Shown here: piece by piece, positions 4,875-27,779 of the stretch
Position numbering within the stretch: the stretch's first letter is position 1
Layout: the number at the start of each line of letters is the position of its first letter
IMG/VR virus record: IMGVR_UViG_3300034092_001898
Coordinates: 13,246 to 77,245 of that record
Source: a virus
Length of the DNA stretch: 64,000 bases
Reading direction: 5' to 3' (one strand)
Program-made: the position numbers and the translations under genes
Notes under the pieces: generated by a model
Database searches by the model: none
Seen by the model: only the letters and a program-made list of their open reading frames with translations
What the model was told of the DNA's origin: nothing

Positions 4875-6254
4875 TCAGCGAACCAGAGAATTGATCCAGT
4901 CAATATCATCGCCTTCCGATGCCACCATGATGGCGGCAGCCAATGCAAAGGGAAAGTCGTCTACGTTTGCTTCCTTACCACCAGTCACTGTCCATTGCCC
5001 CGATTGGCGATACACCACGCTAAGGTTTTTGATTTGCTTGATTGCGACTTCGTGAGGGTACAGGCTAATCAGGCCAGCATTAAACAACTGCCGCATCTTG
5101 CTAAAAGCCTTCATTTTCGTAGAAACGCTCCAGGTTAGTTCGCTAATTGGAAAGCTCTCCGCAAGTGTTTGAATGGTGGAGGCACTATTGAATTGATCAA
5201 GAACGATCTCTTTGAAGCCGTAAGCCTTATGGTGCTCCACAATCCATTGCTCTACACCCTTAATGTTGACTTCTCTTTTGCCATTGATTTCAAAGTCGGC
5301 ATCAAAAGAATGAAACTTGTCCACGATTAGCATTTCGCCTTCATAGTGAACAATGGCCGCAGTGTAGTTGTCGCGGCCAACACCACCTTTAGCAGGGTCT
5401 AGAGCCAAGTAGTAGGTGCTTTGAAAGTCGCGTTGTGGCAGTAAGATACCACGCTTTTTGTCTACGGCAGCCTCCACCACTTCTGGAGCCAGCAAGGCGG
5501 ATAGATTCTTGGAGAACTGAGCACCATATTCCACCCAAAACTTTTCCGGGTCGCGTTTAAGTTCTGCCTCCAAGAAGCTACAGCCCCATGGCAAGTTGGG
5601 ATTGATTTCCCATGTTGGAATGTTGATGGCCTGCATGAACTTGTATTCACCACTTTGCGCCTCGCAGTAGTGTTCATAGAACAGGCCGTCCGTGAGCCAC
5701 GGGGATGAAAGTTCTAGGATTCGTCCATTGTCACCAAATTGGGCAATCGAGGGAGAGAGAGCAGTGTAAATGGCCTTGGCTCCACGGTTGGCGTCACCTT
5801 CAATGCTGAACGCAAGTTCATCCATGATGACCATGACCACGGCTTTACCGCGAGAAGCACGCGCTGAAGCTGGGATTGCCTGGAACACGCAACCATTGCT
5901 AATTTCAATCTCAGTGGCCGTTTCCCTGATGATTTCTTTGGCGAACTGGCTGTCAATCAGCAGTTGTCGAATGTTGTTCAGTGCGAGCTTGGCTTGGCTT
6001 TGGTCGTTGGCAATGGTGACAACATACCATTTTTCCTTTTTTCTTACCTTGCGCCTGTAGCGTTCCTCTAGGGCAAAGCAAACGTAGAGGGCTGCCACGG
6101 CGGCAAGCAGAGTTTTGCCTGATCTGCGCCCAAGAGCCCAAACACCATGCGTTTTAGTGCCATTAAAGTATTCGTCAACAATCTCCTTTTGCTTGTCCCA
6201 CAAGGTAAGACCTAGTGCGTATTCAGCAAACTGCGAGCACTTGAGCATTGTCAA
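4875..6254 (-). CDS. terL: Terminase large subunit
   Basis: Walker A GRRSGKT, Walker B MVIMDE, LSSP coupling motif, RNase H-like LALDPA...DD. Confidence 0.93.
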   Translation of the reverse strand: MTMLKCSQFAEYALGLTLWDKQKEIVDEYFNGTKTHGVWALGRRSGKTLLAAVAALYVCFALEERYRRKVRKKEKWYVVTIANDQSQAKLALNNIRQLLIDSQFAKEIIRETATEIEISNGCVFQAIPASARASRGKAVVMVIMDELAFSIEGDANRGAKAIYTALSPSIAQFGDNGRILELSSPWLTDGLFYEHYCEAQSGEYKFMQAINIPTWEINPNLPWGCSFLEAELKRDPEKFWVEYGAQFSKNLSALLAPEVVEAAVDKKRGILLPQRDFQSTYYLALDPAKGGVGRDNYTAAIVHYEGEMLIVDKFHSFDADFEINGKREVNIKGVEQWIVEHHKAYGFKEIVLDQFNSASTIQTLAESFPISELTWSVSTKMKAFSKMRQLFNAGLISLYPHEVAIKQIKNLSVVYRQSGQWTVTGGKEANVDDFPFALAAAIMVASEGDDIDWINSLVR

Positions 6255-6828
6255 AGGTGGCTATTGGCGATAGTGCGGACTGTGGAATAAAGTATGCCTT
6301 GCGGCCTTGCCTCGGAGTGTAGGCGTATTGTGGCTGCATAGCTTTTTCGCTGTTAATCCAGCCATGAATGAACAACTGCTCGGGATTCATCCAAGTAACT
6401 AGAATATAGCGCTTACCTGGCTTGTCAGAAAGTTGCACGATTAGGTCCCGATCATGACCTTTGCGTGTCTTAACGTCAATGTCTGGTGGTAGGTCAATGG
6501 AGTCACGCTTAGCCTCTATCTCCTGATAAAGAAAGTCTTTTAGCCCTAGGTGCTTGGCTACTGCCATTTCGCCCATGGCGCCAATGATGTGCATTTCAAG
6601 GGCCTTGTCTCCGGTTCTAGCCCCACCATTCCTCCCCCATAGGCCCTTGGCTTCATTTGTTGCCTGGCGTCGATTGGCCTCCGCGATGGCGTCAGCGACC
6701 TCTTCTTCAGTCAGAACGATTGACAGGGGCACGAAAAAAGCGCAACCGCCATTATCATAACGGGAACTAGAGTGGGAGAAACAAGCCAACAATATGACCA
6801 CACTAAACACAGCCAACGGTGGCCCCAT
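6223..6828 (-). CDS. Conserved phage protein, possible PD-(D/E)xK fold (true start probably internal)
   Basis: GAMGEMAVAKHLG...D...IDVKTR pattern. Confidence 0.55.
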   Translation of the reverse strand: MGPPLAVFSVVILLACFSHSSSRYDNGGCAFFVPLSIVLTEEEVADAIAEANRRQATNEAKGLWGRNGGARTGDKALEMHIIGAMGEMAVAKHLGLKDFLYQEIEAKRDSIDLPPDIDVKTRKGHDRDLIVQLSDKPGKRYILVTWMNPEQLFIHGWINSEKAMQPQYAYTPRQGRKAYFIPQSALSPIATFDNAQVLAVC

Positions 6829-8878
6829 TGTGCCCCTTGGGCACTTTGATGGTGACGGCTATAGGGCTGACGGCCTTGCAAATGTCTTTACTGGCATGGG
6901 AACCAGTCGGGATAAGTCGCAAGCCACCACAACTCAGCCAATCATTTTCTTGACACAAGAAGAACTGGAAGGGTTGTATGGAGAATGGATACCGCGACGA
7001 GTGGTGGATATTGTTGCCGATCAATCCACTCGCAAAGGCTTTCGCATCCTCTTTGGCGGTGATGGCGTTAAAGCCAAGGAAGTGGTGGGGATGGAGCAGG
7101 TTATTGAAGACCTAATGATCCTGGAGCACTTTAACCTCGCCAGCAAAAACGAAAGACTTTATGGCGGGGCAGCAATTCTGCTCTACATCAACGATGGTCG
7201 GAGCGCTGATCAGCCTGTCAACAAGAATGGCATCATAGAAGTGGAAGGAATGGAAGTGCTTGACCGCTATCAAATTGCTCCAGTAATTAGCGAAGACAGT
7301 CTCTACGACTACGCGAAAGCCACTCATTACCAAATCATTTCAGGCGACCTCATTCAACAGCCATCGCTCTTAAGGATTCATAAAGATCGCATTTTGCGTT
7401 TTGATGGCATGTGGCTCCCATACCGGATTCGACAGAGGAACTATGGGTGGGGCCTGAGCAGTTTGCAGCCAATTTACGATAGCTTTCGCCACTACTGGAC
7501 TGGCATTCATTCATCGTCCATGCTTTTAAGTGAGTTTGACATCTTTGTCCACAAGATCCGCAACTTGTCTCAAATGCTTGCCAATGGCAAAGAGGCTGAC
7601 GTGAAAAATAGGCTAATCCTGAATGACATGAGCAAGAGCGTGTATCGGGGATTTGCCATTGACGCAGAAAAAGAGGAGCTTGAGTTTATCAGTCGGCAAT
7701 TCTCTGGCATTGGAGAAGTATTAGAGAAACTGCGAGTAGACATTATTGGCGCTTCGCAGATTCCCCATACGATCCTGTTTGGTGAAAGCCCAAGTGGAAT
7801 TGGGGCCACTGGCCGCAGTGAGGAGCGAGATTTTGCCAAGCTCTTGGGCGACTATCAGAGCAGTCACTTCCGCCGCCCATTGAAAAAGCTCATGGAATAC
7901 CTTTTGCTCAGCAAGCAAGGTCCGACCAATGGGCAAATCCCCGATTCGTGGCGGATTAAGTTCAATGATCTGTTTGAACTAAACGAACGGGAGAAGGCTG
8001 ACGTAAGAGCGCGAGTGGCCGCCGTTGATGGCCGTTACATCCAACTTGGTGTGCTGCATCCCAAGGAGGTGGCTGATGCCCGATATGGCGGCAGCGAATG
8101 GACAATGGAACTGACGCTTGACCCATCGCTACCTCGTGAACTGCCTCAGGCGACACAAGGCAAGCCTGTACCGCCTGGTGGTCGTGATCCGTTGAATGAG
8201 GAAAATGGTACGTTGCCAATGGACGGAAGCCGGGAGGTGCAAGACAGTGAAGCTGGTTTGTTCATGCCACGGGACTTAGAGGAGCGACGTGGAGACGTGA
8301 AGTTCACTGACGAGAGCCTGCACAGTCAAGCCGTATCGGCAGCAAAAAGCAAGTTTAAGGTTTGGCCATCGGCCTATGCGAGTGGCTATGTCGTTCAACA
8401 ATACAAAGTTCTCTATAAGAAAAAACACGGTTCACTCTCAGGCGCTTTCAAGGGGGACGATGGTGAAATCCATGCCGATGACCTTGATAAGTGGTTTCAA
8501 GAGAAGTGGGTGAGGATTGGTGGCAATGGTGAAATCATGGGGCCTTGTGGTGGTCGCAGCGAAGGGGAAGGCAAGCCCAAGTGCCTCCCAAAAGCAAAGG
8601 CCGAAGCGATGAGCCAGGAGGAGCGTCAAACGATTGTTTCTCGCAAACGCAAAGCCGATCCCGACCCAGGAAGGAAAGGGGCTGCGCGAATGGTGAGCAG
8701 CAAGGTTGACGCCATTGATCCATTGAAGGTGGAGGGCACCATTATTGGCGGCATTGACGAAGCCGCCCTGATCGAGGAGGCCGACATTCGGGCGGCGCTG
8801 GAGGAATGGAAACAAGAGGCGCCGGAGAGGTACAAAACGCTGCTGGAAGCCACTGATCTTGACCCGCAGCAACAATGA
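6794..8878 (+). CDS. Portal protein (DUF1073 type) with C-terminal DUF5872-like extension
   Basis: ADGLANVFTGMG, RLYGGAAI, RIHKDRILRF, IPHTILFGESPSG; C-terminal WPSAYASG..KWFQEKWV..PKCLP. Confidence 0.88.
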   Translation: MTTLNTANGGPIVPLGHFDGDGYRADGLANVFTGMGTSRDKSQATTTQPIIFLTQEELEGLYGEWIPRRVVDIVADQSTRKGFRILFGGDGVKAKEVVGMEQVIEDLMILEHFNLASKNERLYGGAAILLYINDGRSADQPVNKNGIIEVEGMEVLDRYQIAPVISEDSLYDYAKATHYQIISGDLIQQPSLLRIHKDRILRFDGMWLPYRIRQRNYGWGLSSLQPIYDSFRHYWTGIHSSSMLLSEFDIFVHKIRNLSQMLANGKEADVKNRLILNDMSKSVYRGFAIDAEKEELEFISRQFSGIGEVLEKLRVDIIGASQIPHTILFGESPSGIGATGRSEERDFAKLLGDYQSSHFRRPLKKLMEYLLLSKQGPTNGQIPDSWRIKFNDLFELNEREKADVRARVAAVDGRYIQLGVLHPKEVADARYGGSEWTMELTLDPSLPRELPQATQGKPVPPGGRDPLNEENGTLPMDGSREVQDSEAGLFMPRDLEERRGDVKFTDESLHSQAVSAAKSKFKVWPSAYASGYVVQQYKVLYKKKHGSLSGAFKGDDGEIHADDLDKWFQEKWVRIGGNGEIMGPCGGRSEGEGKPKCLPKAKAEAMSQEERQTIVSRKRKADPDPGRKGAARMVSSKVDAIDPLKVEGTIIGGIDEAALIEEADIRAALEEWKQEAPERYKTLLEATDLDPQQQ

Positions 8879-12170: not shown

Positions 12171-13465
12171 CAACTAGCTGGGACTGTTTTGACACCTTGG
12201 TAACAAGGGCTCGCTTTGATCCCTTGACAGTCTTTGACTGGATGGGGGAGGAATATAGCCTTGCAAATTTTACGCAACGGCGAAAAGCAGCAGAGAGTAG
12301 GGCGCCCAATACCTTGTCGTCTATCTATGAAGAACTGGCTAAAGATTTTCAATGGACGACAGAGGAGAAAGAATATTACAAACAGAAAGAAATTGAAGCT
12401 GAATTGAAGCATTGTCTTCCCATTGAAGAGAATTTACGAAATGTGAAAGATGGGGACTTAATTGTCAGTGACATGTATTTGCCTCGTGAGGCAATCGAAG
12501 GTATTCTGAGAAAGAATGGCATGGATAAAGCCGTTTCTTTCTATGTGAGCACTGGAGGTAAAAGCTCTGGCACCATTTGGCCACATCTTCCGCCTATTGA
12601 TCTGCACGTAGGGGATAATGTTCACTCGGACGTGAGCAGTCCTCGCAGTCATGGCATCAATGCCTTGCACTACACAGACATGCATTTCTCTCCCCACGAG
12701 CAAGCGGTGGGTGGAGAGCTAGCCCTGCTAATGAGAGTGGTGCGCCTTGCCAATCCTTACACCCCATGCACTGACTTCCATCGTCTCTGGTTTGAGCAGG
12801 CGCAGCTTAATGTGCCAGCGTTGGTACTAGCAGCAGCCTCGTTGCCTAAAGAAAACCTAGCTTTTGTCTGGCGTGACTGCGTGCATTTGCAGCGTATTCA
12901 CCAGCAATTGCATGGCACCCACAATGTTCAGTTTCATTGCTCAAGAGTGGCAATGGCAAGCGGAGGAGCCGAATGGAAGAAATATGCAGAGAACACCGCT
13001 AAAGGGAGAGTCATTGTTGACTTGCAGGGCAGTGGCAGGAGCGTTGTCCAATATTGGCGCGATAATTTCCAAGAAGCGCCGCAGTTGCTTTACATAACGG
13101 GAATGATGACACATGGTCATGCTTTAATTACAACTCCCACCGATGTGATTGAAAGGTTTAATTCTTCCTCCCTTGGGTCAATGGCGCAGTTTCCTGAGCG
13201 CTTTAAAAATGAGTTTGAAGAAGAGTTTTTGCAATGCCAAAAGAAAGCCATCGACAAGGCTATAGAGTACATGCCATTCTTTAATTTAAAAGAAGAAAAT
13301 CTTCCTCTTCTGGGCTCCATCATTCAACTGATGTATCATTCAAAAACTCCTTTGTTGACACCCCATCAAAGCAATCATTGTTCTGGCCATAAAGAGATGG
13401 ACTGGCCCGCCGATAGATACTTGGACGATAAGATGGCTATATCAAGAGTTTTTGGTCATGACTAA
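12167..13465 (+). CDS. HAD-superfamily hydrolase of the type found in polysaccharide loci
   Basis: SWDCFDTLV, VSDMYL, GK, HVGDNVHSD. Confidence 0.8.
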   Translation: MTTSWDCFDTLVTRARFDPLTVFDWMGEEYSLANFTQRRKAAESRAPNTLSSIYEELAKDFQWTTEEKEYYKQKEIEAELKHCLPIEENLRNVKDGDLIVSDMYLPREAIEGILRKNGMDKAVSFYVSTGGKSSGTIWPHLPPIDLHVGDNVHSDVSSPRSHGINALHYTDMHFSPHEQAVGGELALLMRVVRLANPYTPCTDFHRLWFEQAQLNVPALVLAAASLPKENLAFVWRDCVHLQRIHQQLHGTHNVQFHCSRVAMASGGAEWKKYAENTAKGRVIVDLQGSGRSVVQYWRDNFQEAPQLLYITGMMTHGHALITTPTDVIERFNSSSLGSMAQFPERFKNEFEEEFLQCQKKAIDKAIEYMPFFNLKEENLPLLGSIIQLMYHSKTPLLTPHQSNHCSGHKEMDWPADRYLDDKMAISRVFGHD

Positions 13466-13495
13466 TAAGCAAAAACAAGCCAAAGTTGCCAAGGT

Positions 13496-14017
13496 TTAGT
13501 CCTGATCTGCGACAATATGATTCCATTGCCGATTTTTTTCAATATGACTAATTGTTGTTCGTGTTACGTTTATTGCTTTTGCAAGCATGTTTCGGGACAG
13601 GGACGGATTGGCAAGTAATATATTTTTAATGGCGGCTACTTGTTCTTCTGATAATTTGCTCCGACCATTGTTGATTCCTTTATGAGTGCCATGAAGAATA
13701 GAATCTTGGCAATTCTTCTCTGGCGTACCCCAAATTAAATTAATGGCTCTATTGTCGTAGCGATTGCCATTCAAATGACGAACAACTTCAAAGTCTTTGG
13801 GCTTGCCATGAAAAGCTTCGCAAACAAGCCTGTGAACCTGTCGAGTTAACCCAGATACGCCGCTGGGATAAAGACCTACCTTTCCGTAAGGACCAGAAAA
13901 ATTCACCTTAAGAAGAATCCGCCTGTCGTCTTTGTACTTACAAACGCGACCTTCACTGCTGACCTCATAGAGTCCGTCGGTTTCCGCTATGGGCATCCAG
14001 GTTTCCTCGTTAGACAT
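13496..14017 (-). CDS. NUMOD4/HNH homing endonuclease
   Basis: ETWMPI..YEVSSEGRV (NUMOD4), VHRLV..AF..VRHLNGNRYDN (HNH), C-terminal HTH; AT-rich and antisense to the head operon. Confidence 0.9.
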   Translation of the reverse strand: MSNEETWMPIAETDGLYEVSSEGRVCKYKDDRRILLKVNFSGPYGKVGLYPSGVSGLTRQVHRLVCEAFHGKPKDFEVVRHLNGNRYDNRAINLIWGTPEKNCQDSILHGTHKGINNGRSKLSEEQVAAIKNILLANPSLSRNMLAKAINVTRTTISHIEKNRQWNHIVADQD

Positions 14018-14059: not shown

Positions 14060-14299
14060 ATGAGTTCAAGGAAGCAAAGGCAAAAAATTGCTCGTGTTTT
14101 GCGCGAGTTCAAGGCTGGTACGCTCAAAAGCAGTACCGGAGAGAAAGTGGCCAATCAGCGTCAAGCGATTGCCATTGCCCTTTCCGAGGCTGGCATGAGT
14201 AAGGAAGGCAAAAGCGATGAATACTGGGATTCTTACGTCCTAACGCTCGCGGAGGAGGAGGAAGAGGAGGAAGAGGAGGAATACATCCCAAAGGACTGA
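14060..14299 (+). CDS. Small DUF6496-like head-region protein; 0-frame product of a -1 frameshift gene
   Basis: KIARVLREFKAGTLKSS..QAIAIALSEAG, poly-Glu, ends C.CCA.AAG.GAC.TGA. Confidence 0.75.
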   Translation: MSSRKQRQKIARVLREFKAGTLKSSTGEKVANQRQAIAIALSEAGMSKEGKSDEYWDSYVLTLAEEEEEEEEEEYIPKD

Positions 14300-14646
14300 G
14301 CCTTGACGCGGCTAGCTTTGCCCCTCCATCGTCCGTGAGGGCTGCAGCGCGTCGAGGCCTGGAACTACGCAAGAAGCACGGCAAGGGCGGATTGACCACG
14401 CAAGAGGCTGGTGAGCAAGGAATTGGCAGTGGAGTGGCACGAGCCACGAGTTTAGCCAATGGAGAGGCGCTGAGCTACGAAACCATTAAGCGCATGGCGG
14501 CCTTTTTTTCGCGGCATGAGAAGAACAAAGGGGGAGGGGAGGATGATGCTGGTTACATTGCCTGGCTTTTGTGGGGCGGTGATTCGGGAAGAGTGTGGGC
14601 CAATCGCGTCATTGGGCAACAGGAAAGGAAGCGGGCCGCCCGTTAA
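14293..14646 (+). CDS. -1 frame extension (FxPPxxV..ARRGLE..WGGD domain)
   Basis: Open from the slippery site; the FAPPSSV lead-in lies upstream of the GTG at 14335. Confidence 0.7.
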   Translation, partial: GLSLDAASFAPPSSVRAAARRGLELRKKHGKGGLTTQEAGEQGIGSGVARATSLANGEALSYETIKRMAAFFSRHEKNKGGGEDDAGYIAWLLWGGDSGRVWANRVIGQQERKRAAR

Positions 14647-14672
14647 GATGGCCTCAATCATCCGTCGTTGCA

Positions 14673-14987
14673 ATGGAAAGTCCTGACCTTGACTATTTTG
14701 ACGATGGCGAGGATGAGGATTTTAGTGTAGAAGACGCCTTGCGTGTTCTGAGCCTCAATTCTCACCGCAATACAACGCGATGGGCAGTGGTCAGCAAGCA
14801 ACTGTTTGTCAATGGTCGTGCCACTGAGGATCAAAACTATGTGGAACCACAGTACGAAAGGCCAGATCCTGAGTTTGAGGAGCACCATCGCATGTTGATC
14901 TTTGAGGCAATCGCAGTGGCCAAAGCCTACATCATGGCCGGGATTGAAGCCGAGATTCAGCAGACGAGGGAATCTTCAGGGCTATAA
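14673..14987 (+). CDS. Hypothetical acidic protein
   Basis: ATG at 14673 within ORF 14595; coding-like composition. Confidence 0.6.
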   Translation: MESPDLDYFDDGEDEDFSVEDALRVLSLNSHRNTTRWAVVSKQLFVNGRATEDQNYVEPQYERPDPEFEEHHRMLIFEAIAVAKAYIMAGIEAEIQQTRESSGL

Positions 14988-15298: not shown

Positions 15299-16486
15299 AT
15301 GAGCAATACTTCTTTTCGCTACGACGTAGCGCCGATTGAGAAGTACGAGCTAACCCCCGAGGGTTATCTGCGGCTTCATGCCACAATCGCTCGCACTGGC
15401 GTTCAGCATTACTCCAATGCTGACGGTTCAATTCGGCGTGAATATCGTGCCGCTGAAGATGTGGCGCTCCCTGAAAGTCTTGCTTCTTTTGCGGGCAAGA
15501 GCGTAACTGACGAACATCCCCCGGTCCTGCTTGATAGCGCCAACACCACAAACTATCAAAAGGGCTTCACTGGCTCTGAGATTGTTTATGACAATGGTTT
15601 TGTCCGAGCAGTTATGACAATTACAGACCAAGAACTGATCGACAAGATTCAACGGGGTGATGCTACGGAAGTTAGCGCAGGCTATCGAGTGTCCTTTGAT
15701 GCCAACCCTGGCACCACTCCTGATGGTGAACCGTATGACGGTCGCCAAAAGGAAATCATTGGCAATCATGTAGCCGTTGTTAAGACCGGGCGAGCAGGCC
15801 CGCAAGTGAAATTGCATCTTGACCGACAGGATGCCGCCGATCCTTCTCTTCTCAATTCTGGAGATTCTCTTATGACTACCGCAAAGGTGGTCTTTGATGG
15901 CGCTGACTTTGAAGTGAGTGAGGGCGTTGCCCTTGCTGTCAACAAAGAACGCGCTGATGCAAAGACCTCTTACGAGGCCATGAAAAAGCAGTACGACGAA
16001 ATGTGTGGCAAAGCCTCCAAACTTAAGGAGGAAATGGATGCCATGGAAAAGGAAATGAAAGGCAAAATGGATGCCGCTGATGGTCGTGCTGATGCCCTCG
16101 CTGTTGAAACTGAATCGCTCAGGGCTGAACTGGAAGCGGCTAAAGCCGTGAATGTTGACAGCCTTGTCGAAGAGCGCATTGCCCTGATCGAAAAGGCCAA
16201 GCCTGTCCTTGACAGCGCTTATTCCTTTGCTGGCAAGTCCGCTCGTGAAATCATGGTCGATGCCGTTAAGGCAGTTCGTGGTGATTCCATGAATCTGTCT
16301 GAACGGTCTGACGACTACGTTCAAGCCGCTTTTGACACCATTTCCGTTGACGACCGTAAGGATTCGTCTACTGGTCCTCTGCGCAATGCCGTCGCATCCG
16401 TGATGGCAACCATTCCCCAGGACACGTATCAGGAAACGGTGGGAAAAGCCTACCTCCGTCCTCTCACCGCTTCTAAAGGAGCCTGA
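15299..16486 (+). CDS. DUF2213 prohead protease/scaffold
   Basis: TPEGYL, ARTGVQHY, VTDEHP, EVSAGY, NHVAVVKTGRAG; coiled-coil C-terminus. Confidence 0.9.
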   Translation: MSNTSFRYDVAPIEKYELTPEGYLRLHATIARTGVQHYSNADGSIRREYRAAEDVALPESLASFAGKSVTDEHPPVLLDSANTTNYQKGFTGSEIVYDNGFVRAVMTITDQELIDKIQRGDATEVSAGYRVSFDANPGTTPDGEPYDGRQKEIIGNHVAVVKTGRAGPQVKLHLDRQDAADPSLLNSGDSLMTTAKVVFDGADFEVSEGVALAVNKERADAKTSYEAMKKQYDEMCGKASKLKEEMDAMEKEMKGKMDAADGRADALAVETESLRAELEAAKAVNVDSLVEERIALIEKAKPVLDSAYSFAGKSAREIMVDAVKAVRGDSMNLSERSDDYVQAAFDTISVDDRKDSSTGPLRNAVASVMATIPQDTYQETVGKAYLRPLTASKGA

Positions 16487-20176: not shown

Positions 20177-20394
20177 AAATGCTGTCAAGCGATTGCGGTA
20201 GCGCATGGCTTTTCAATGTAAAGAGAGAAGAGGATCAGCTAGTTGCTGGCCTTGCCTGCTTCGTCAGCAATTCTCCGGAGCAAGTCATTGTGCAATGGAG
20301 AGGCGAAAGGCTAATCCTTGGACTTCCCCATCGTGCCGTGTCTAATCCCATGCCGTGTCGTGTGCTGAATGCTAGACTTGCGCTGCTTAATTGA
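20173..20394 (+). CDS. Hypothetical protein
   Basis: ATGA-coupled ORF. Confidence 0.5.
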   Translation: MKMLSSDCGSAWLFNVKREEDQLVAGLACFVSNSPEQVIVQWRGERLILGLPHRAVSNPMPCRVLNARLALLN

Positions 20395-20399
20395 TTTTC

Positions 20400-20921
20400 A
20401 TGAGCCAATACAGCGAGTTTTTCTTGATTGGCAGCCCAAAGTATGCTGCCATTGCTGCTGCTTTGCGGCTTCGCAGTTACGGCAGTTGGCTGACTGAGGA
20501 ACTGTGGCTGCGTGATGCGCAGACCAAAAAGCGGGCTGGGTTTTCAATGAAGGCCATTCGTTTGGCGCGACGCATTGCGGCACAGAAAGGCATTAGCGAG
20601 GACGATGCGTTTGACCTCCTTCAGTCTGATGGCCCCGAAAGGCAAGAGGTGCTGGGGGACTTTGCAGAAGAAGCGGCAGCGTTGTTTGCTCTCCTTCCAT
20701 CGCCTCAAGAGCAATTTGAGGAACTGGTGACAAAGTTCTTCCAGAATCGCGGGGAGGTGAAAAAGGGCACGGAATGGACCTCTACGCCCGACTGGAGCCG
20801 GGAGGACACTGGCAAGCTCACCAAGACCATGCTCGATGCCGTAGAGGCTTTCATGGCCCAGGAGGAGGGCTCTAGCAATACTGAGACCGAAGAGGACGAC
20901 GCCCCAAAGGAACAAGGCTAG
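20400..20921 (+). CDS. Tail assembly chaperone (gpG-like)
   Basis: Acidic tail ending C.CCA.AAG; upstream of the tape measure. Confidence 0.75.
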   Translation: MSQYSEFFLIGSPKYAAIAAALRLRSYGSWLTEELWLRDAQTKKRAGFSMKAIRLARRIAAQKGISEDDAFDLLQSDGPERQEVLGDFAEEAAALFALLPSPQEQFEELVTKFFQNRGEVKKGTEWTSTPDWSREDTGKLTKTMLDAVEAFMAQEEGSSNTETEEDDAPKEQG

Positions 20922-21325
20922 AGCGGCTAGAAAGATACACTGAAGCCACGTTAGCCCAGTCCACGGATTGGGCTGCGTTGTATTGCCGCATTCAGGCACT
21001 TGCCATTGCCGATCCCATGTTTCATGCGGAGCGGTTTGGGAAGGTGCCAATCAAGTTGTTGCAAGCCATGCTGGAGCAGGCCAGCACAGAGCAGCAACGC
21101 CTAATTAACGCCCACAGCATGAGCACGGCCAAGCTCGCCGTAACAGTTGTTCGGGCACTAGGCGGGAAAACGGCACAAGCTAAAGTGGATGACTTCTTGC
21201 CATTTGAGCAAGCTAAGCCTAATGCCATCAGTAGCGAAACCAAGGAGGCCCTGCAATGGGCGCTGAAAACTCATAGGCTTCCCCCTGTTATCGTGGGACT
21301 AATTGGGGCGGAACTAGCACGCTAA
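20909..21325 (+). CDS. Tail assembly chaperone -1 frameshift extension (gpGT-like)
   Basis: Slippery heptamer at 20903-20909; the -1 frame is open into ORF 20978-21325. Confidence 0.75.
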   Translation, partial: GTRLERLERYTEATLAQSTDWAALYCRIQALAIADPMFHAERFGKVPIKLLQAMLEQASTEQQRLINAHSMSTAKLAVTVVRALGGKTAQAKVDDFLPFEQAKPNAISSETKEALQWALKTHRLPPVIVGLIGAELAR

Positions 21326-21833: not shown

Positions 21834-24800
21834 GTGCCTAACGCGGGATACGAAGTTTTATTCACTACCAATGCCCAAAAGGTAGAGCGGGAGATTAAAA
21901 GCCTGCATCGGCAAGTTGGAATGCCGATCGTTCCGAAGGTAGAGCGGGAGATTAAAAGCCTGCATCGGCAAGTTGGAATGCCGATCATTCCGACTGTTGA
22001 CCTTTCGGAACTCAAGGCGCTCAATGCTGAGCTTGATCTAAAGCAACGTCACCTTCGCCAGACCATTGCGTATTTCAAGCAGAACCAGATCAAAGCGAGC
22101 ATGGATTTGTCCATGCCTGCTCTTACGCCAGCGGCACTACAGAAAGCGCTGCCGTCTGCTGAAATCAAGAAAGTCGCTCAGCAACAAGCCAAGCAACTTC
22201 AGGACGCCTTTCGATCTGTTGGTGGGCAATCAGCAGTTATTGATGTTGAAATTAAAGACTTAAGCCCTGCGAGTATTGAGGTTGTCAGGAAAAGGCTCGT
22301 CCAGTTAACTCAGCTTACAAAGCGGCGGAGGACAGAGCTTGAGCAAATGGCCGCTGTTGCGCAAGAAAAAGGGATTGCCCTTCCAAGTTTGCAAGGTGTT
22401 GCAAAGCCAACAATTAAGCAATTCCAACAAGCCTTGACGCAAGGCTTCCAGGAAGCGGGAGATGATGCGCTTATTGGTTTTGTCAATAGCTTGGCTGCGG
22501 GGAATACAAAGGCGGGAAAGGCAGCGGCAGGTCTTGGCGCGGCAGTGCTGCGAGAGCTTAAACAAGTTCTCAGGATTCAATCACCGTCAAAAGAGACAGA
22601 AGAGGATGGGCGGAATGTCGTTGACGGACTGACCCTGGGTATCAGCAGGCAGGCCGACAAAGCAGTTCAAGCGGCCCGTAACTTAGCCAAAGAAGTGGCT
22701 GCGGCTATGGACCCAGCCAACATCCCGCAAGGCCCTCGGCGGCAGGCTGCTGCCGCAGCAATGCGCACACCGGACCTCTCTGGTTCGTGGTTCTCTCAAC
22801 CTGCACCGCCGCGTCAGATCGCTGATCCATGGGCCGATGCTCCGCTTTCGAGAAGAGAGCGTGAAGCTCAAATGCGAGCACAATTAAAGGCTATTGGGAT
22901 TGTGCATCTTGAGCAGAAAGCTCTTGATGACCTTGCTGCTTCCTACAATCGCGTAACCAATGCTAAGGCCAATACTGCTACGGCGGGTAATCAAGGAATT
23001 GCAGGGTTATTGCCTGCTGCTGGGCAATCTTCTGCGTCTCGGATGATTTCTGACGGCCTAGCTGGAACTTTCTTGCGGGCGCCAGACATTTCCAAGCTCA
23101 AGGCAGACGCCAAAAAGATTGAGGGAAGTAATCGCTCTTTACTTGAGTTAGGTGATCGTCTTGCCGCGACCACCATGCGGCCTGGATATTACCGTCGCGC
23201 CATTCGTCGGGTTGGCATTGAGAACTTGCCAGTTGACATTGTAGGGGCAGCGAATGAGCGATCCGAAAAGCCCGTAGAAGCGATGGTGAGGCGAATCATT
23301 GGCCAAAAGGGCGAATTGGAACGAGCGCTGGATCAAGCGTTTAAGTCGCCAGGGAAGGCGATTGCCAATAATGGGGCAAAGGCTGGAAAGGACTTTGCAG
23401 AAAAGCTTGCCGATGGTATTAACAGTGGTGTTGCCAATGTCGTAGCGGCGGCAAGGAGACTTTCTGGCCGACTGAACACCGCAGCGGGGGGAAGTGGTGC
23501 TGGTGGTACTGGTGGTGGAACGGGCGGGCGCGGGGGAGGCGGCGGAGGGCAAGGCCCGCAAGGTCCAGGCGACAGCGATTTACCCTTCCTCCCTGGGCGC
23601 AGACTGGGCGATGTGAGAGTGAGTGGCCGCAGGATTAAAGGCTTGTATAGCGAGCTACAGCAAATAGATCGACTAATTAACAAGACTCCCATTACAGACG
23701 ATCTTTTCTCTAGGCTACAAGCTCGTGCCGGTGTTACCCAAGGCCAGATTGAGCGTGCTCAAAACATTGGGCAAGTGCAGCGACTGCGAACAAGCTCTGA
23801 GTTCTTTGAGGAAGGTTCGCTTATTCGTGTTAATAAGGCACTTCAAGCCTTGCAGATTGAGGCGTCTGAAATCAAGCCGAACACGAAAGAATGGAATGAA
23901 TATCAAAAACAAATTGCCGCATTGGGTCGTCACCTAGAAAAGACTGGAGAATCCGCACGACTTATCTCGCTGAATGAGCTTAGCAAGTCAGTTCCCCAAG
24001 CTTCTCTTACTGCATTAAGCAGCAAGCTAGAGGCATTACGGCTTCAAGTGAAAGACTTAGAACCCAATACTGAACCTTGGCGAAGAATACAAAATCAAAT
24101 CAATCAGACCACGCTGGCCTTGGAAAGGGCGAATAGAGCGGAACAGCGAAGCATGTTGATGGCGCGAGAGCAATCCGCCCCCGAAGGTTCAGTGGCGCAA
24201 CTGCAAGCAAGAATTGCAAGGCGTCAAATGGTCTTGGAACGTCTCTCTCCAGACACGGCCAAGTATTCTGGCTTCTCCCGAAAAATCCAACAGGATGAAT
24301 TGCGCGTAGAACGCATCACCCGCAAGCCTCTCACGATGGGAGAGAGGAGCGGCGCTGCGGCTGGCGCGGTACTGTACGGTGGTGGCCTTGCCGGAAGCCC
24401 GCTGAGCGCTGTTGGCGGTCTTGCTGGCGGTCTTGCTGGCGGCATTCCCGGTTCATTTACTGGTGCCGCTATTGGCCAAACGGCTGATCAACTTGTCGCC
24501 GCTGCCAGTGCCTCTGCCACCTACGCGGCTTCGTTGTCTCGCCTTAGGATTGCTCTTGCTGGCGTCAGTGGTAGTTTGGAAAACTACCAAGCCAACCTCA
24601 AGGCTATCAATAGCATCAGCAATACGTTTGGCATGAGCCTTGACAAGGTGATTCAGCCTTATACCAAACTGCAAGCCTCTGTGTTGGCGGCAGGCTATAG
24701 CGCACAAACTACAAAAGAAATCTTTGAAGGCGTTACTGCCGCCTCCATTGCAACTGGCGGTAGTGCAGAAGACCTTGAAGGCTCCATGCGTGCCGTTACG

Positions 24801-27779
24801 CAGATCTTTGCAAAAGGCACTGTCCAAAGCGAAGAACTTGTCGGTCAGTTGTCGGAGCGCATTCCGGGTGCGTTTGCTTTGTTTGCAAAGTTCAACAACA
24901 TGAGTACGGCTTCGCTCAAGGAAGCATTAGAGCGAGGGCAAGTGGGGCTAGACAATTTCATCAAGTTCAACAAGGGACTACTTGAAACCTATGGGCGGTC
25001 GGCACGAGAAATTGCCAAAGGTCCTGAATACGCTGGGCAGCGTTTAGAGGCTGCCTTGAAAAGGCTCCAAGCCTCTGTTGGTGCAGCGCTTGCCCCGACT
25101 GGCGCCGCCTTTCAGGACTGGGCCGCTGGTGTTGTAGATGCCTTTGAGCGCGTCATCAAGAAAGCGCAAGAGTATAAACTGCTGAGCAGCCAACTTTCGC
25201 CCGGCGGCATTGTCGAAGAAATCTTGATAGGAAAGCGTACCGAGCAAAGCCTGCTTGATGACATCAAAAAGGCAAGGGCTCAACTTAAAGCAATGAAGGA
25301 AGAACTCAAGGCAACTACCCCTGGGCTTTCATACGGGCCTTTTGGTGTTATCAAGAGTCCCTACGATGTAAAGAAAAATGAAGTTACGGAAAAAGAGAAG
25401 CAACTTACCACCCTGAGCGCAGCGGAAGCAATGTTAAGGCGCCAAGAGGAACTGACTAGGAATGAAGCAAAAGAACAGGTCATAGCGGCGGCTGAGGAGC
25501 GCAAAAAGCAATTCGCCTCCTTGGCTCAAAGCTATGGCGAATTGATGAGCCAAAGAGACAAGGATTTAGCGCAAACCAGAAAGGATCACGAAAACGACTT
25601 GCAAGAATTGAGAAAGAATCATGCAAAAGAAATGCTTGATTTTGAGGACACGCTTGCGGAGGAGCGGCGATCCACTGAGCTTGAAATTGCAAGAACTCGT
25701 CGTAGTATTGAAAATGATGCCTATGACATTGCCGCGCAAGAGCAAATCTTACTGGCAAAAGCAAGAGGTGAAGATACCGCCGTCATGGAGAAAGAGCAAA
25801 CTTTTAGGCAGCGAGTGCGTGCAGACAGGGAAGCAGTACTTCAACTAGAAGAAAGTCAGATCACAAAGCAGGAAAACCGCCAAAAAGCTCTTGATAAGAT
25901 GCGTAAGCAAAATGCCGAAGAAATCAATCAACGGGCGGAAGCACATGCAAAGCGAATTAAGAGCATAGGCGAAGAATACGCAAAAAACGTGTCCAAGTTT
26001 CTCACAAAAGCAGCCGTTGATAGTGGGCAAACACTAGAGAAAACCACCCAAAGGATTACGCTGCAACACATTATGTTGCTCATGGCCACGCAGCGGGTGC
26101 AGGGCGGCCTACATCCTTACAAAGACGCTAGTGGCAAAATTGCCGACGAAATCCAGCGCCTACAGAATAAAATTGACGAATTAGGCGGCGACTTCAAGGC
26201 TTTTCGCTCGCCCGCCCCATCGGACACTTCACCCAAGCAACTGGGCCAAGGCGGCCCGGACATGCCTGACTGGGTAATAGCGCAGGCTCAAAACAAGCCA
26301 GTCCCTGAATCCTCAAAGTTGTACCCCGCTGACAACAGGCAATACACTCCGCATCCCTATGCTATTGCAGGGCGAGATGCCAGCGGAAGGCTAATCATTG
26401 GCCCTAGGCCAGGCGCGACTCCTCCGACGCCAGGGATGGAGCAAACGAGGGCCACTGATGCGCAACAACTGCAAAATGAAAAAGAATCACGGACCAGTGC
26501 TCGCACGAAAGACCTGATGCAGAGGTATAATGACTTGCTGGAGCCGCTAGTGCAAGCCAAGAAAACGACTGGCGAGCAAAATGATCTTATTGATATTCAA
26601 GCGGATCTTCTACATAGAGGTGTCAATCCAGCGCTGATTGAATCTCTATCTATTTCCATGCAGCAAGGCAGGCAAGCGAGAGAAGGGATTAGACAAGAGC
26701 AAGAAGACTATGCAAAAAAGTTGGCCAAGGGCGATCTTGACCAACAGCAATATGGAGAATTGATGCAGCTTGCAAGCAAGCTGAACGAGACACTAAAAGA
26801 GACGCTGGCATTGTCCGATCAAGAAATAGCCAAAAACAAGCAAATCGGAGTTGCACTTAGGACTAATCTGGATATAGCCCAAAGAAGTGCATTGTTACGA
26901 GCAGCACCTGGCCTGCAAACAAAAACAGCGGAATTGATGCTGGAGGGCATGTGGGATTCGGGGAAAGCCTCAAGGTTCGCCAAGGTTTTAATGAACCTAG
27001 AAGGGAATGAGCGCATTAAGGCTCAATTCACCAATCTTGGAGAAACACTTAATTCGACACTCGGAAATGCCATCGTGAATGTGACTGCAGATTGGGGTAA
27101 TTTCTCTGAGGCGCTTCAAGACTCCGCAAAAACGTTACAGGATGCCTTCAAGCAACTTGCGAATGCAATCATTAACGAAATGACTCGCGCATTGGTCAAC
27201 AAGGCTGTTGGGTGGCTTATGCGAGTTGCTGGTTTTGGGGCACCATTGGTGGGCGAAGGTCTTCGTGGCGACACCGGCATTGACTTTTCGCAGTTCATGC
27301 CTCGTGGCGACACCGGCATTGACTTTTCGCAGTTCATGCCTCGTGGCGACACTGGTATTGATCTGTCACAGTTTATACCTGGTGGCGACACTGGCATTGA
27401 CTTTTCGCAGTTTATACCTGGCGGCGACACCGGCATTGACTTTTCGCAGTTTATGCTTGACAATCAAAAGGCTTTTAAGTTTGCCAATGGAGGAATTGTT
27501 ACTGGCCCGACTCTTGGCCTTATTGGTGAGGGGCGCTACAACGAAGCCATCATTCCAATGCCCAACAATCGGGCAGTGCCAGTGGACTTAAAGGGAAGTG
27601 TCGGCGGCAATTATTCCACCTCCATTGCAGTCAATGTCAACAATTCTTCTACTGGCGCTACTGCCGAATCGCAAATCACTGGCGATCAAGGCAATAAGCT
27701 TGCTGGAGTGCTGGATAAAGCCGTCAAGCAAGCTATCCTTAGTGAACAACGGCCTGGAGGACTCCTATATCGCCAATGA
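21834..27779 (+). CDS. Tape measure protein
   Basis: 1981 aa, helical; IQSPSK, QIFAKGTVQSEELVGQLSERIPGA, FANGGIVTGPT..GEG..EAIIP, EQRPGGLL. Confidence 0.95.
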   Translation: MPNAGYEVLFTTNAQKVEREIKSLHRQVGMPIVPKVEREIKSLHRQVGMPIIPTVDLSELKALNAELDLKQRHLRQTIAYFKQNQIKASMDLSMPALTPAALQKALPSAEIKKVAQQQAKQLQDAFRSVGGQSAVIDVEIKDLSPASIEVVRKRLVQLTQLTKRRRTELEQMAAVAQEKGIALPSLQGVAKPTIKQFQQALTQGFQEAGDDALIGFVNSLAAGNTKAGKAAAGLGAAVLRELKQVLRIQSPSKETEEDGRNVVDGLTLGISRQADKAVQAARNLAKEVAAAMDPANIPQGPRRQAAAAAMRTPDLSGSWFSQPAPPRQIADPWADAPLSRREREAQMRAQLKAIGIVHLEQKALDDLAASYNRVTNAKANTATAGNQGIAGLLPAAGQSSASRMISDGLAGTFLRAPDISKLKADAKKIEGSNRSLLELGDRLAATTMRPGYYRRAIRRVGIENLPVDIVGAANERSEKPVEAMVRRIIGQKGELERALDQAFKSPGKAIANNGAKAGKDFAEKLADGINSGVANVVAAARRLSGRLNTAAGGSGAGGTGGGTGGRGGGGGGQGPQGPGDSDLPFLPGRRLGDVRVSGRRIKGLYSELQQIDRLINKTPITDDLFSRLQARAGVTQGQIERAQNIGQVQRLRTSSEFFEEGSLIRVNKALQALQIEASEIKPNTKEWNEYQKQIAALGRHLEKTGESARLISLNELSKSVPQASLTALSSKLEALRLQVKDLEPNTEPWRRIQNQINQTTLALERANRAEQRSMLMAREQSAPEGSVAQLQARIARRQMVLERLSPDTAKYSGFSRKIQQDELRVERITRKPLTMGERSGAAAGAVLYGGGLAGSPLSAVGGLAGGLAGGIPGSFTGAAIGQTADQLVAAASASATYAASLSRLRIALAGVSGSLENYQANLKAINSISNTFGMSLDKVIQPYTKLQASVLAAGYSAQTTKEIFEGVTAASIATGGSAEDLEGSMRAVTQIFAKGTVQSEELVGQLSERIPGAFALFAKFNNMSTASLKEALERGQVGLDNFIKFNKGLLETYGRSAREIAKGPEYAGQRLEAALKRLQASVGAALAPTGAAFQDWAAGVVDAFERVIKKAQEYKLLSSQLSPGGIVEEILIGKRTEQSLLDDIKKARAQLKAMKEELKATTPGLSYGPFGVIKSPYDVKKNEVTEKEKQLTTLSAAEAMLRRQEELTRNEAKEQVIAAAEERKKQFASLAQSYGELMSQRDKDLAQTRKDHENDLQELRKNHAKEMLDFEDTLAEERRSTELEIARTRRSIENDAYDIAAQEQILLAKARGEDTAVMEKEQTFRQRVRADREAVLQLEESQITKQENRQKALDKMRKQNAEEINQRAEAHAKRIKSIGEEYAKNVSKFLTKAAVDSGQTLEKTTQRITLQHIMLLMATQRVQGGLHPYKDASGKIADEIQRLQNKIDELGGDFKAFRSPAPSDTSPKQLGQGGPDMPDWVIAQAQNKPVPESSKLYPADNRQYTPHPYAIAGRDASGRLIIGPRPGATPPTPGMEQTRATDAQQLQNEKESRTSARTKDLMQRYNDLLEPLVQAKKTTGEQNDLIDIQADLLHRGVNPALIESLSISMQQGRQAREGIRQEQEDYAKKLAKGDLDQQQYGELMQLASKLNETLKETLALSDQEIAKNKQIGVALRTNLDIAQRSALLRAAPGLQTKTAELMLEGMWDSGKASRFAKVLMNLEGNERIKAQFTNLGETLNSTLGNAIVNVTADWGNFSEALQDSAKTLQDAFKQLANAIINEMTRALVNKAVGWLMRVAGFGAPLVGEGLRGDTGIDFSQFMPRGDTGIDFSQFMPRGDTGIDLSQFIPGGDTGIDFSQFIPGGDTGIDFSQFMLDNQKAFKFANGGIVTGPTLGLIGEGRYNEAIIPMPNNRAVPVDLKGSVGGNYSTSIAVNVNNSSTGATAESQITGDQGNKLAGVLDKAVKQAILSEQRPGGLLYRQ
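21879..21993 (+). repeat. 57-nt tandem duplication in the tape measure N-terminus
   Basis: KVEREIKSLHRQVGMPI(V/I)P twice, near-identical DNA. Confidence 0.95.
27264..27458 (+). repeat. Five 39-nt tandem repeats in the tape measure C-terminus
   Basis: (R/G)GDTGID(F/L)SQF(M/I)(P/L) five times. Confidence 0.95.

What the first reader, a model, noticed from the sequence alone, without database searches (positions are those of the whole stretch)
14251..14646. Second programmed -1 frameshift, in a head-region gene, with a full set of stimulators
Seen: ORF 14060 ends ATC CCA AAG GAC TGA, a canonical X.XXY.YYZ heptamer (C.CCA.AAG, 14287-14293). After a 6-nt spacer, GCCTTGACGCG (14300-14310) pairs with CGCGTCGAGGC (14348-14358; 11 bp, one G-U), enclosing a further GCCCCTC/GAGGGC stem. 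Poly-Glu codons put AGGAGG SD-like motifs upstream (14265, 14274). The -1 frame reads PKGLSLDAASFAPPSSVRAAARRGLE, so the downstream domain starts before its GTG. Predicted products: 79 aa and about 195 aa. Phage -1 frameshifts are best known in tail chaperones and capsid/tail extensions; I do not know of one in this gene pair.
Basis: partly seen in the sequence, partly recalled or inferred. Interest (0 to 1): 0.75.

Follow-up and report, generated by a model that had tools for sequence, protein, structure and literature searches.

The report
Conserved -1 frameshift joining two head-module ORFs
A lake cyanophage, like more than 100 related phage contigs, appears to use a classic slippery-sequence ribosomal frameshift to make both a short protein and a long fusion from two ORFs currently annotated as separate genes; the mechanism is textbook, but this gene family was not known to use it.

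Summary
ORF 14060-14299 (79 aa, DUF6496) ends ATC CCA AAG GAC TGA. C_CCA_AAG (14287-14293) is in the right phase. The -1 frame is open from 14221 to 14646. An 11-bp stem starts 6 nt after the heptamer.

In one window these features could occur by chance. The comparative evidence is what supports a frameshift:
- Of 164 related viral and metagenomic loci plus the window, 104 have the same -1 arrangement.
- All 104 carry an in-phase X_XXA_AAG heptamer (A, G or C as X), and 99 have exactly one codon between it and the stop.
- 37 loci carry the two domains as one in-frame ORF.
- Sequence after the 0-frame stop shows codon periodicity in the -1 frame.
- The window's GTG "start" is GTA, GTT or GTC in most relatives.
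- The heptamer type changes at least 11 times on the tree.
- A hairpin 6 nt downstream is intact in 54 of 62 frameshift junctions but only 2 of 17 fused ones.

Synechococcus phage S-CBS4 (gp018/gp019) has the same unannotated signal.

The SD-like stimulator is not established. The window clade uses its own hairpin, not the common one.

The downstream domain is an uncharacterised module. Elsewhere it is fused to portals, prohead proteases and polyvalent proteins.

Verdict: a real, probably undescribed member of the canonical -1 PRF class. No protein-level proof exists.

The parts
14060..14299 (+). 0-frame ORF: DUF6496 domain, acidic poly-Glu linker, then ...YIPKD*. This is the short product (79 aa).
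   Evidence: ORF; PF20106 DUF6496, 33 bits against a cutoff of 24, E = 8e-8.
14265..14279 (+). Two AGGAGG motifs (14265-14270, 14274-14279) inside the Glu codons. The second ends 7 nt before the heptamer. Possible SD-like stimulator, unproven.
   Evidence: GGAGG at exactly 7 nt in 5 of 11 C-type and 11 of 21 G-type heptamer junctions, and in 0 of 37 A-type. Confounded by coding (Met-Glu-Asp, poly-Glu) and by shared ancestry.
14287..14293 (+). Slippery heptamer C_CCA_AAG in X_XXY_YYZ phase.
   Evidence: The homologous position in 104 of 104 -1-arranged relatives is A_AAA_AAG (61), G_GGA_AAG (29), C_CCA_AAG (13) or G_GGA_AAA (1).
14297..14299 (+). 0-frame stop TGA, one codon after the heptamer.
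   Evidence: The one-codon spacing is kept in 99 of 104 relatives; in 5 the stop follows directly.
14300..14358 (+). Predicted stem-loop starting 6 nt after the heptamer. Outer arms are 14300-14310 and 14348-14358 (11 bp, one G-U). The inner helix is GCCCC(TC) at 14320-14326 with GAGGG(C) at 14337-14342.
   Evidence: MFE -32.8 kcal/mol, z -1.6 to -1.75. L005 keeps it (z -3.6). L085 pairs the same 5' arm with a nearer 3' arm.
14293..14646 (+). -1-frame continuation (GLSLDAASFAPPSSVR...): 117 codons plus stop. With residues 1-78 of the 0-frame ORF it gives the 195-aa trans-frame product. It contains an uncharacterised helical domain of about 100 aa.
   Evidence: translation; phrog_2859 positions 161-267, E = 1e-16; single-ORF homologues of 180-204 aa carrying PF20106 plus this domain; -1-frame periodicity.
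14335..14337 (+). GTG (a Val codon of the fusion) that ORF callers take as the start of a separate 103-aa gene.
   Evidence: only 12 of 38 unique -1 junctions have GTG here; the rest have GTA or GTT, and L085 has GTC. In 24 of 38 there is no ATG, GTG or TTG between the heptamer and the domain.

Best explanation
This is a programmed -1 ribosomal frameshift of the canonical tandem-slippage type.

Proposed mechanism (inferred):
- Ribosomes translating the DUF6496 ORF reach C_CCA_AAG (14287-14293), with CCA in the P site and AAG in the A site.
- A structure beginning 6 nt downstream (14300 onward) impedes them.
- A fraction slips back one base (CCA to CCC, AAG to AAA) and continues in the -1 frame to 14646.
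- Non-shifted ribosomes read one more codon and stop at TGA, giving a 79-aa DUF6496 protein.
- Shifted ribosomes give a 195-aa DUF6496-linker-C-domain fusion.

The signal is ancestral or at least widespread in S-CBS4-like cyanosiphoviruses of lakes and estuaries. Some lineages have replaced it with a plain in-frame fusion.

Shown here: the sequence anatomy, its conservation, the -1-frame coding signature, the fused homologues, and the lineage-specific maintenance of the hairpin.

Inferred, not shown: that slippage occurs, its efficiency, and the role of the two products.

The C-domain is probably a virion- or procapsid-associated module. In other phages the same domain (57-77% identical) is fused to portal proteins, XkdF prohead proteases, a capsid protein, 2H phosphoesterases, InPase and large polyvalent proteins. 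The frameshift would then set a fixed ratio between a DUF6496-only protein and a DUF6496 protein carrying this module.
For: 1. Phase and anatomy are confirmed.

2. S-CBS4 gp018/gp019 have the same -1 relation, with A_AAA_AAG, one codon, then a stop. The -1 peptide upstream of the GTG is conserved: KKGLRGDAEGFAPPASVR against PKGLSLDAASFAPPSSVR.

3. Among 164 loci plus the window, 104 are -1-arranged, and all have an in-phase X_XXA_AAG; 99 have one codon before the stop. 37 are in-frame fused and 2 are irregular. The 7 loci where my N-terminal motif failed visibly carry heptamer, stop and hairpin as well.

4. The heptamer's first triplet varies (A, G, C, encoding K, G, P) while AAAG is invariant. 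The type changes at least 11 times on the tree, and the fused/-1 state changes only about 4 times. This indicates selection for slipperiness, not for the peptide.

5. In the 54 nt after the 0-frame stop, entropy by -1-frame codon position is 0.46, 0.16 and 1.12 bits across 66 unique sequences.

6. A start codon is not conserved.

7. The hairpin GGGGNGA-N11-TNNCCCC lies 6 nt after the heptamer. 97% of cells are paired. One pair covaries (AU 16, CG 9, UG 4, GU 1), and 0 of 500 shuffles reach the observed score. All 7 bp are intact in 54 of 62 unique -1 junctions against 2 of 17 fused junctions that encode the same RGDxESFSPP peptide (Fisher p = 1e-8, not corrected for phylogeny).

8. Natural fused variants such as P0112 and P0051 (…SCGKK-ALRGDAESF…) read exactly as the predicted trans-frame product of their -1 relatives (…SCGKKR*).

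9. There is no indel across 14285-14700 in contigs of 4 runs.
Against: - There is no RNA, ribosome-profiling or peptide evidence; everything is comparative.
- Within the window alone the heptamer and fold are not above chance.
- The window clade lacks the common GGGG hairpin. Its substitute stem has no compensatory changes, and L085 uses a different 3' partner.
- A third clade (L042, L064, L093) shows no convincing structure at the usual spacing.
- The Fisher and shuffle tests ignore relatedness.
- In 12 of 38 junctions, including the window, a GTG exists, so some independent initiation cannot be excluded there.
- The function of both domains is unknown. There is no Pfam, NCBIfam or PDB match for the C-domain.
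Confidence: 0.88

Rival explanations
1. These are two independent genes. The downstream domain is translated on its own from GTG 14335, or by termination-reinitiation after TGA 14297, and the heptamer is a coincidence.
For: A GTG is present in the window, and ORF callers and the S-CBS4 GenBank record annotate two genes. 12 of 38 unique junctions have GTG at this codon.
Against: - The codon is GTA, GTT or GTC in most relatives, and 24 of 38 have no start codon between heptamer and domain.
- The 16 codons upstream of it are conserved as protein, with -1-frame periodicity starting right after the 0-frame stop.
- No SD precedes the GTG.
- The heptamer is kept in phase in 104 of 104 loci while changing type.
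Confidence: 0.05
2. The gene is really a single in-frame ORF, as in 37 relatives. The window carries an assembly or sequencing indel, or a recent inactivating frameshift mutation (pseudogene).
For: Many close homologues are single ORFs of 180-204 aa. Logan contigs break in the 14243-14284 repeat, so that stretch is not independently confirmed. L083 (fused) differs from L036 (-1) by one A in the A-run.
Against: - The same -1 offset, heptamer and stop spacing recur in 104 loci from many independent projects and in a cultured isolate.
- G_GGA_AAG and C_CCA_AAG are not homopolymer-error sites.
- A trinucleotide-type repeat would be expected to vary by multiples of 3.
- The 0-frame stop is placed identically.
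- The hairpin is selectively kept in the -1 lineages.
- No indel appears at 14285-14700 in 4 runs.
Confidence: 0.03
3. The frame change happens at the RNA level: RNA polymerase stutters on the A-run (transcriptional slippage) rather than the ribosome slipping.
For: 61 of 104 loci have A6 within A_AAA_AAG. Homopolymeric A runs are known slippage sites in some bacteria (my own knowledge: Thermus dnaX, IS elements).
Against: The window and 42 other loci have C_CCA_AAG or G_GGA_AAG, with no run longer than 3-4. All types keep exact X_XXY_YYZ phasing, which matters for tRNA re-pairing but not for polymerase stuttering. A hairpin at 6 nt is a ribosomal stimulator.
Confidence: 0.03

Closest known systems
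E. coli dnaX gamma/tau -1 frameshift (A_AAA_AAG, upstream SD-like element, downstream hairpin)
   Same: Most relatives use the identical heptamer A_AAA_AAG, and all use the ..A_AAG A-site slip. A hairpin starts about 6 nt downstream. Some have a GGAGG upstream. A stop lies close to the site. Two products share an N-terminus.
   Different: In dnaX the shifted ribosome terminates early (shift gives the short product); here the shift gives the long product. The gene family is unrelated. The SD-like element sits 7 nt from the heptamer, against about 10 in dnaX (my own knowledge), and its role is untested.
Lactobacillus phage A2 major head protein -1 frameshift (Garcia et al. 2004, cited in PMC10885494) and T7 gene 10A/10B
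   Same: A -1 PRF in a phage head-module gene that adds a C-terminal extension to a fraction of the molecules. As I recall, not checked here, A2 uses a C_CCA_AA-type heptamer with a downstream stem-loop.
   Different: Those shift within the major capsid protein itself. Here the gene is a small DUF6496 protein between portal and protease, and the extension is a mobile domain also found on portals, proteases and polyvalent proteins. There is no sequence homology.
Tail assembly chaperone G/GT -1 frameshift of long-tailed phages
   Same: Conserved -1 PRF near the 3' end of a short ORF, giving short and long isoforms in a fixed ratio. The same phage has one with the same heptamer: C_CCA_AAG at 20903-20909, with the -1 frame open to 21325.
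   Different: Different module (head, not tail). There is no homology to tail assembly chaperones. Many relatives have replaced the shift with an in-frame fusion.
Virion-packaged 'polyvalent protein' and portal/MuF-fused effector domains (Iyer et al. 2017, PMC5512222)
   Same: The C-domain is found fused to Phage_portal (PF04860, PF06381), XkdF protease (PF14550), 2H phosphoesterase (PF13563, PF02834), InPase (PF18823), LPD1 (PF18796), SNF2 helicase and ART domains. This is the same syntax Iyer et al. use to infer packaging into the head.
   Different: The domain itself is not a named Pfam family, and I did not find it described in that paper. Here it is delivered by frameshift onto DUF6496 rather than being fused to a portal or MuF.

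Membership tests
Canonical -1 programmed ribosomal frameshift signal | X_XXY_YYZ heptamer with XXY and YYZ as 0-frame codons | tested here: met
   C_CCA_AAG at 14287-14293 is in phase. It is in phase in 104 of 104 -1-arranged relatives.
Canonical -1 programmed ribosomal frameshift signal | The -1 frame is open across the site and encodes a conserved protein from the site onward | tested here: met
   Open from 14221 to 14646. Entropy by -1-frame codon position after the stop is 0.46, 0.16 and 1.12 bits. Fused homologues exist.
Canonical -1 programmed ribosomal frameshift signal | Stimulatory RNA structure 5-9 nt downstream, supported by conservation or covariation | tested here: met
   Family level: a 7-8 bp hairpin at 6 nt, with one covarying pair showing 4 pair types, intact in 54 of 62 -1 junctions against 2 of 17 fused. 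Window clade: a different stem at the same spacing, supported by thermodynamics only.
Canonical -1 programmed ribosomal frameshift signal | Upstream SD-like stimulator | tested here: inconclusive
   AGGAGG ends 7 nt upstream. GGAGG at this exact spacing is present in about half of the G- and C-type junctions and in none of the A-type. It is confounded by coding and ancestry.
Canonical -1 programmed ribosomal frameshift signal | Trans-frame protein detected; efficiency measured | not testable with these tools
   No RNA-holding run is listed. I found no virion proteome for S-CBS4 gp018/gp019.
DUF6496 (PF20106), for the upstream ORF | Pfam HMM score above the gathering cutoff | tested here: met
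   33 bits against 24, residues 5-44. Fused homologues also carry PF20106.
Tail assembly chaperone G/GT | Position immediately upstream of the tape measure gene, and homology to tail assembly chaperone families | tested here: not met
   The locus lies between the portal (6794-8878) and the DUF2213 protease (15299-16486). There is no tail assembly chaperone hit. The phage's own chaperone pair is at 20391-21325, two ORFs upstream of the 1981-aa ORF at 21834.
Head-packaged, portal-fused cargo domain class (sensu Iyer et al. 2017), for the C-domain | Recurrent fusion to portal, MuF, protease or polyvalent proteins in other phages | tested here: met
   fusions to PF04860, PF06381+PF19197, PF14550, PF05065, PF13563, PF18823, PF18796, SNF2 and ART, at 57-77% identity.
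Head-packaged, portal-fused cargo domain class (sensu Iyer et al. 2017), for the C-domain | Physical presence in the virion, or delivery into the host | not testable with these tools
   This needs virion mass spectrometry.

The most novel reading that the evidence does not exclude
The frameshift is a stoichiometry device for capsid assembly or cargo loading. The short DUF6496 protein and the DUF6496-cargo fusion would co-assemble in a ratio fixed by heptamer and hairpin strength, as G/GT do in tails. This would load a defined number of copies of a highly conserved, mobile head-associated module into the procapsid. Lineages would tune or abolish the ratio by switching heptamer type, adding a GGAGG, swapping the hairpin, or fusing the frames. 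That would be a head-side counterpart of the tail chaperone frameshift, and would give a handle on the function of both DUF6496 and a very widespread unnamed phage domain.
Probability: 0.3. Interest if true: 0.65.

Novelty: new member of a known kind. Interest (0 to 1): 0.55.

Why it matters
- It corrects the annotation of a cultured reference phage (S-CBS4 gp018/gp019) and of hundreds of metagenomic phage contigs, where one recoded gene is called as two hypothetical proteins.
- It adds a well-populated recoding family outside the tail chaperone, capsid, dnaX and IS classes. This family has a built-in natural control: sister lineages have fused the frames and let the hairpin decay. That makes it a good test set for PRF predictors and for studying how stimulators evolve (heptamer swaps, hairpin replacement).
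- It links DUF6496 to a very conserved, promiscuous phage domain found on portals, prohead proteases and polyvalent proteins. This gives a concrete way to study both in a culturable system (S-CBS4 on Synechococcus CB0101).

Tried and rejected
- Expression data: the look-up of sequencing runs listed no RNA holder, so expression could not be assessed.
- Read check: read laying returned only Logan contigs, which break in the 14243-14284 GAG/GAA repeat. This gave no bridge across the repeat and no raw-read check.
- C-domain sequence searches: no hit in Pfam, NCBIfam or PDB. The only hit was phrog_2859, of unknown function.
- C-domain structure: an AlphaFold model of the fused homologue P0057 (pLDDT 79, all-helical) gave no PDB match by Foldseek (best E = 1.4). 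VIA-align gave only Z of 5.4 or less to generic helical folds. I draw no fold assignment from these.
- ESM Atlas: only unnamed viral clusters, plus a weak DUF6321 lead at 0.87. Not pursued.
- Portal tail: the C-domain is not detectably similar to the portal's C-terminal DUF5872 region.
- ORF 14673-14987: not similar to the C-terminal XkdF part of the Limnohabitans phage homologue.
- Literature: no paper mentions DUF6496, and none links S-CBS4 or cyanophages to this frameshift. The library is incomplete, so this is not proof of novelty.
- L042/L064/L093 clade: no convincing structure at 5-9 nt.
- Irregular loci: L071 and L084 appear as '+1' arrangements. Each differs from its -1 relatives by a local one-base change, and I treated them as noise.
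- Not used: complex prediction and the search of protein representatives.

Full report
**Observation**

The region reads as the first-stage reader described it.
- ORF 14060-14299 (79 aa) ends ATC CCA AAG GAC TGA.
- The heptamer C_CCA_AAG (14287-14293) has CCA and AAG as 0-frame codons.
- The -1 frame is closed by TGA at 14218-14220 and is then open to TAA at 14644-14646. It reads ...IHPKGLSLDAASFAPPSSVRAAARRGLE....
- The first ATG, GTG or TTG in that frame is GTG 14335.
- RNAfold reproduces the stem 14300-10/14348-58 with an inner GCCCC/GAGGG helix. MFE is -32.8 kcal/mol, but z is only -1.6 to -1.75 against dinucleotide shuffles.
- CCCAAAG is not enriched in the window: 12 found, 13.5 expected.

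Taken alone, the window shows a plausible signal that is not a significant one.

**What the two ORFs are**

The upstream ORF is a DUF6496 protein (PF20106, above the cutoff) followed by a poly-Glu linker. The downstream part matches no Pfam, NCBIfam or PDB sequence. It does match positions 161-267 of the 740-position phrog_2859, of unknown function.

The locus lies in the head module, in this order:
- terminase (4875-6254, minus strand);
- portal with a C-terminal DUF5872 (6794-8878);
- a glycosyltransferase/methyltransferase cluster;
- an antisense HNH gene (13496-14017);
- this locus;
- a small ORF and an antisense regulator;
- DUF2213 head-maturation protease (15299-16486);
- cement protein;
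- major capsid protein.

The closest cultured relative is Synechococcus siphovirus S-CBS4. The window DNA is held by several lake-water metagenome runs.

**Comparative test: the decisive part**

In S-CBS4, gp018 and gp019 are annotated as two hypothetical proteins. They stand in the same -1 relation. gp018 ends AGA AAA AAG GGC TAA, which is A_AAA_AAG, one codon, then a stop. The -1 frame from the heptamer reads KKGLRGDAEGFAPPASVRSAARRGLE. This is collinear with the window's peptide upstream of the GTG.

A protein search found 685 homologues of 65-209 aa. Many, at 80-90% identity, are single ORFs of 180-204 aa carrying PF20106 plus the downstream domain. Others are 121-133-aa calls that run upstream of the Val codon in the -1 frame.

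I fetched 80 viral and 80 metagenomic loci and classified them by script:
- 104 have the -1 arrangement.
- 37 are in-frame fusions.
- 2 are irregular.
- The rest are truncated, or my N-terminal motif failed. All 7 of the latter that I printed also show heptamer, stop and hairpin.

Every one of the 104 has an in-phase heptamer: A_AAA_AAG 61, G_GGA_AAG 29, C_CCA_AAG 13, G_GGA_AAA 1. In 99 exactly one codon separates it from the stop; in 5 the stop follows directly. There are 81 distinct junction sequences.

On a tree of the downstream domain, built with the frameshift region excluded, the heptamer type changes at least 11 times. The -1/fused state needs only about 4 changes, and -1 forms occupy the deep branches, including the window and S-CBS4 clades. 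The first triplet thus drifts among K, G and P codons but always stays a homotriplet, and AAAG never changes. This is the signature of selection for tRNA re-pairing, not for a peptide.

**Is the stretch after the stop translated in the -1 frame?**

Across 66 unique junctions, mean column entropy in the 54 nt after the 0-frame stop is 0.46, 0.16 and 1.12 bits for -1-frame codon positions 1, 2 and 3.

The Val codon that is GTG in the window is GTA or GTT in 26 of 38 unique viral-contig junctions, and GTC in the window's 90%-identical relative L085. In 24 of 38 there is no start codon at all between heptamer and domain.

Natural in-frame variants (P0112, P0051...SCGKK-ALRGDAESF...) have exactly the sequence predicted for the trans-frame product of their -1 relatives (...SCGKKR*). 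Independent initiation and reinitiation are therefore not the conserved way to make the downstream domain.

**Stimulators**

In 75 of 81 unique junctions the stop is followed directly by GGGGNGA-N11-TNNCCCC, 6 nt after the heptamer.
- On 34 distinct sequences, 97% of cells pair.
- The only pair free to vary under the coding constraints (third position of a Gly codon against first position of an Ala/Ser codon) shows AU 16, CG 9, UG 4, GU 1 and 4 mismatches.
- No shuffle of 500 reaches the observed covariation score, and slid controls collapse.

The fused lineages encode the same RGDxESFSPP peptide but let the helix decay, using CGA, CGT or AGA Arg codons, Gly-to-Asp changes, and TCT or TCG Ser codons. 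All 7 pairs are intact in 54 of 62 -1 junctions against 2 of 17 fused ones (Fisher p = 1e-8, uncorrected for phylogeny). One of the two intact fused cases, L083, appears to be a one-A insertion derivative of a -1 form (compare L036).

The window clade (window, L005/L006, L085) has replaced RG by SL. It lacks the GGGG arm. Instead it has GCCTTGACG starting at the same 6-nt spacing. In the window and L005 this arm pairs with CGCGTCGAGGC inside the conserved AARRGLE codons. In L085 it pairs perfectly with a nearer CGTCAAGGC. A strong hairpin at the right place is thus kept, but by different partners, and there are too few sequences to test covariation.

A third small clade (L042, L064, L093) shows nothing convincing at that spacing.

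The SD-like element remains open. GGAGG ends exactly 7 nt before the heptamer in 5 of 11 C-type and 11 of 21 G-type junctions, and in 0 of 37 A-type. That would fit weaker heptamers needing help. But the motif arises from Met-Glu-Asp or poly-Glu codons and is shared by descent.

**Artefact check**

Contigs from four runs, from different listed studies, match 14285-14700 with no gap. Two of them carry 13 substitutions there, so they represent a different strain. All contigs end in the GAG/GAA repeat at 14243-14284, so the repeat length itself is unverified. A trinucleotide-type repeat should not change the frame, and the close relatives L005/L006 and L085, with different linkers, show the same arrangement.

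**Function**

A fused homologue models as two helical units joined by a disordered acidic linker (pLDDT 79). It has no meaningful PDB match.

In predicted viral structures and in longer database proteins, the C-domain recurs at 57-77% identity fused to:
- Phage_portal families;
- XkdF/S78 prohead protease (also in Limnohabitans phage DC31);
- a capsid protein;
- 2H phosphoesterase/LigT;
- InPase;
- LPD1;
- SNF2 helicases;
- ADP-ribosyltransferase-NUDIX proteins.

This is the architecture syntax from which Iyer et al. (PMC5512222) infer packaging into the head and delivery to the host. I therefore infer, without having shown it, that the long product is procapsid- or virion-associated, and that the frameshift fixes its ratio to the DUF6496-only product.

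**Comparison with known systems, and novelty**

Mechanistically this is a textbook tandem-slippage site of the dnaX, IS or G/GT type. Head-gene precedents exist (T7 10A/10B; Lactobacillus phage A2, cited in PMC10885494). It is not a tail assembly chaperone. The phage's own chaperone frameshift is at 20903-20909, with the same heptamer.

I found no paper on DUF6496, or on a frameshift in this gene pair, in the library. S-CBS4 is annotated without it.

I class it as a new member of a known kind. It is well supported comparatively (confidence 0.88) and unproven biochemically. Another first-stage note in this scan (e1-6098420) flagged the same stretch.

Noticed in passing
window 20391-21325: Probable tail assembly chaperone G/GT frameshift. 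C_CCA_AAG at 20903-20909 is in phase at the end of ORF 20391-20921. The -1 frame is open from 20903 to 21325 (140 codons). The pair lies two ORFs upstream of the 1981-aa ORF at 21834-27779, presumably the tape measure protein. It uses the same heptamer as the head-module site.
   Followed up: partly
window 13459-13500 and 13496-14017 (minus strand): A 13-codon ORF, MTNKQKQAKVAKV*, resembles the N-terminus of DUF6496 proteins in relatives (for example P0051). It abuts the antisense HNH endonuclease gene that sits just upstream of ORF 14060. S-CBS4 has an HNH gene at the same place.
   Followed up: partly
L001 (S-CBS4, HQ698895) 2636-3288: GenBank annotates gp018 and gp019 as two hypothetical proteins. 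The data here indicate one recoded gene with A_AAA_AAG at L001 2932-2938.
   Followed up: yes
L083 vs L036; proteins P0112 and P0051: Some in-frame 'fused' variants differ from -1 relatives only by one extra A in the slippery A-run (A7 against A6), and keep the hairpin. They are either recent fusions or homopolymer miscalls or population variants. The older fused clades lack both heptamer and hairpin.
   Followed up: partly
proteins P0122-P0240: The roughly 100-aa downstream domain is unusually conserved (57-77% identity) across very different fusion partners: portals, XkdF protease, 2H phosphoesterase, InPase, SNF2, ART-NUDIX and topoisomerase I. It has no Pfam family.
   Followed up: partly
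window 6794-8878: The portal protein (Phage_portal_3) carries a C-terminal extension of about 200 aa with DUF5872. It shows no detectable similarity to the frameshift-delivered domain.
   Followed up: partly
window 14243-14284: The GAG/GAA (poly-Glu) repeat breaks the Logan contigs of all four runs laid. Its length in the window is not independently confirmed.
   Followed up: no
L042, L064, L093 (heptamer at L042 1501): This is a small clade with C_CCA_AAG and one extra codon in the linker (PKGLTALDSLSF...). It shows no hairpin at the usual 6-nt spacing; the predicted structure starts about 20 nt downstream.
   Followed up: no
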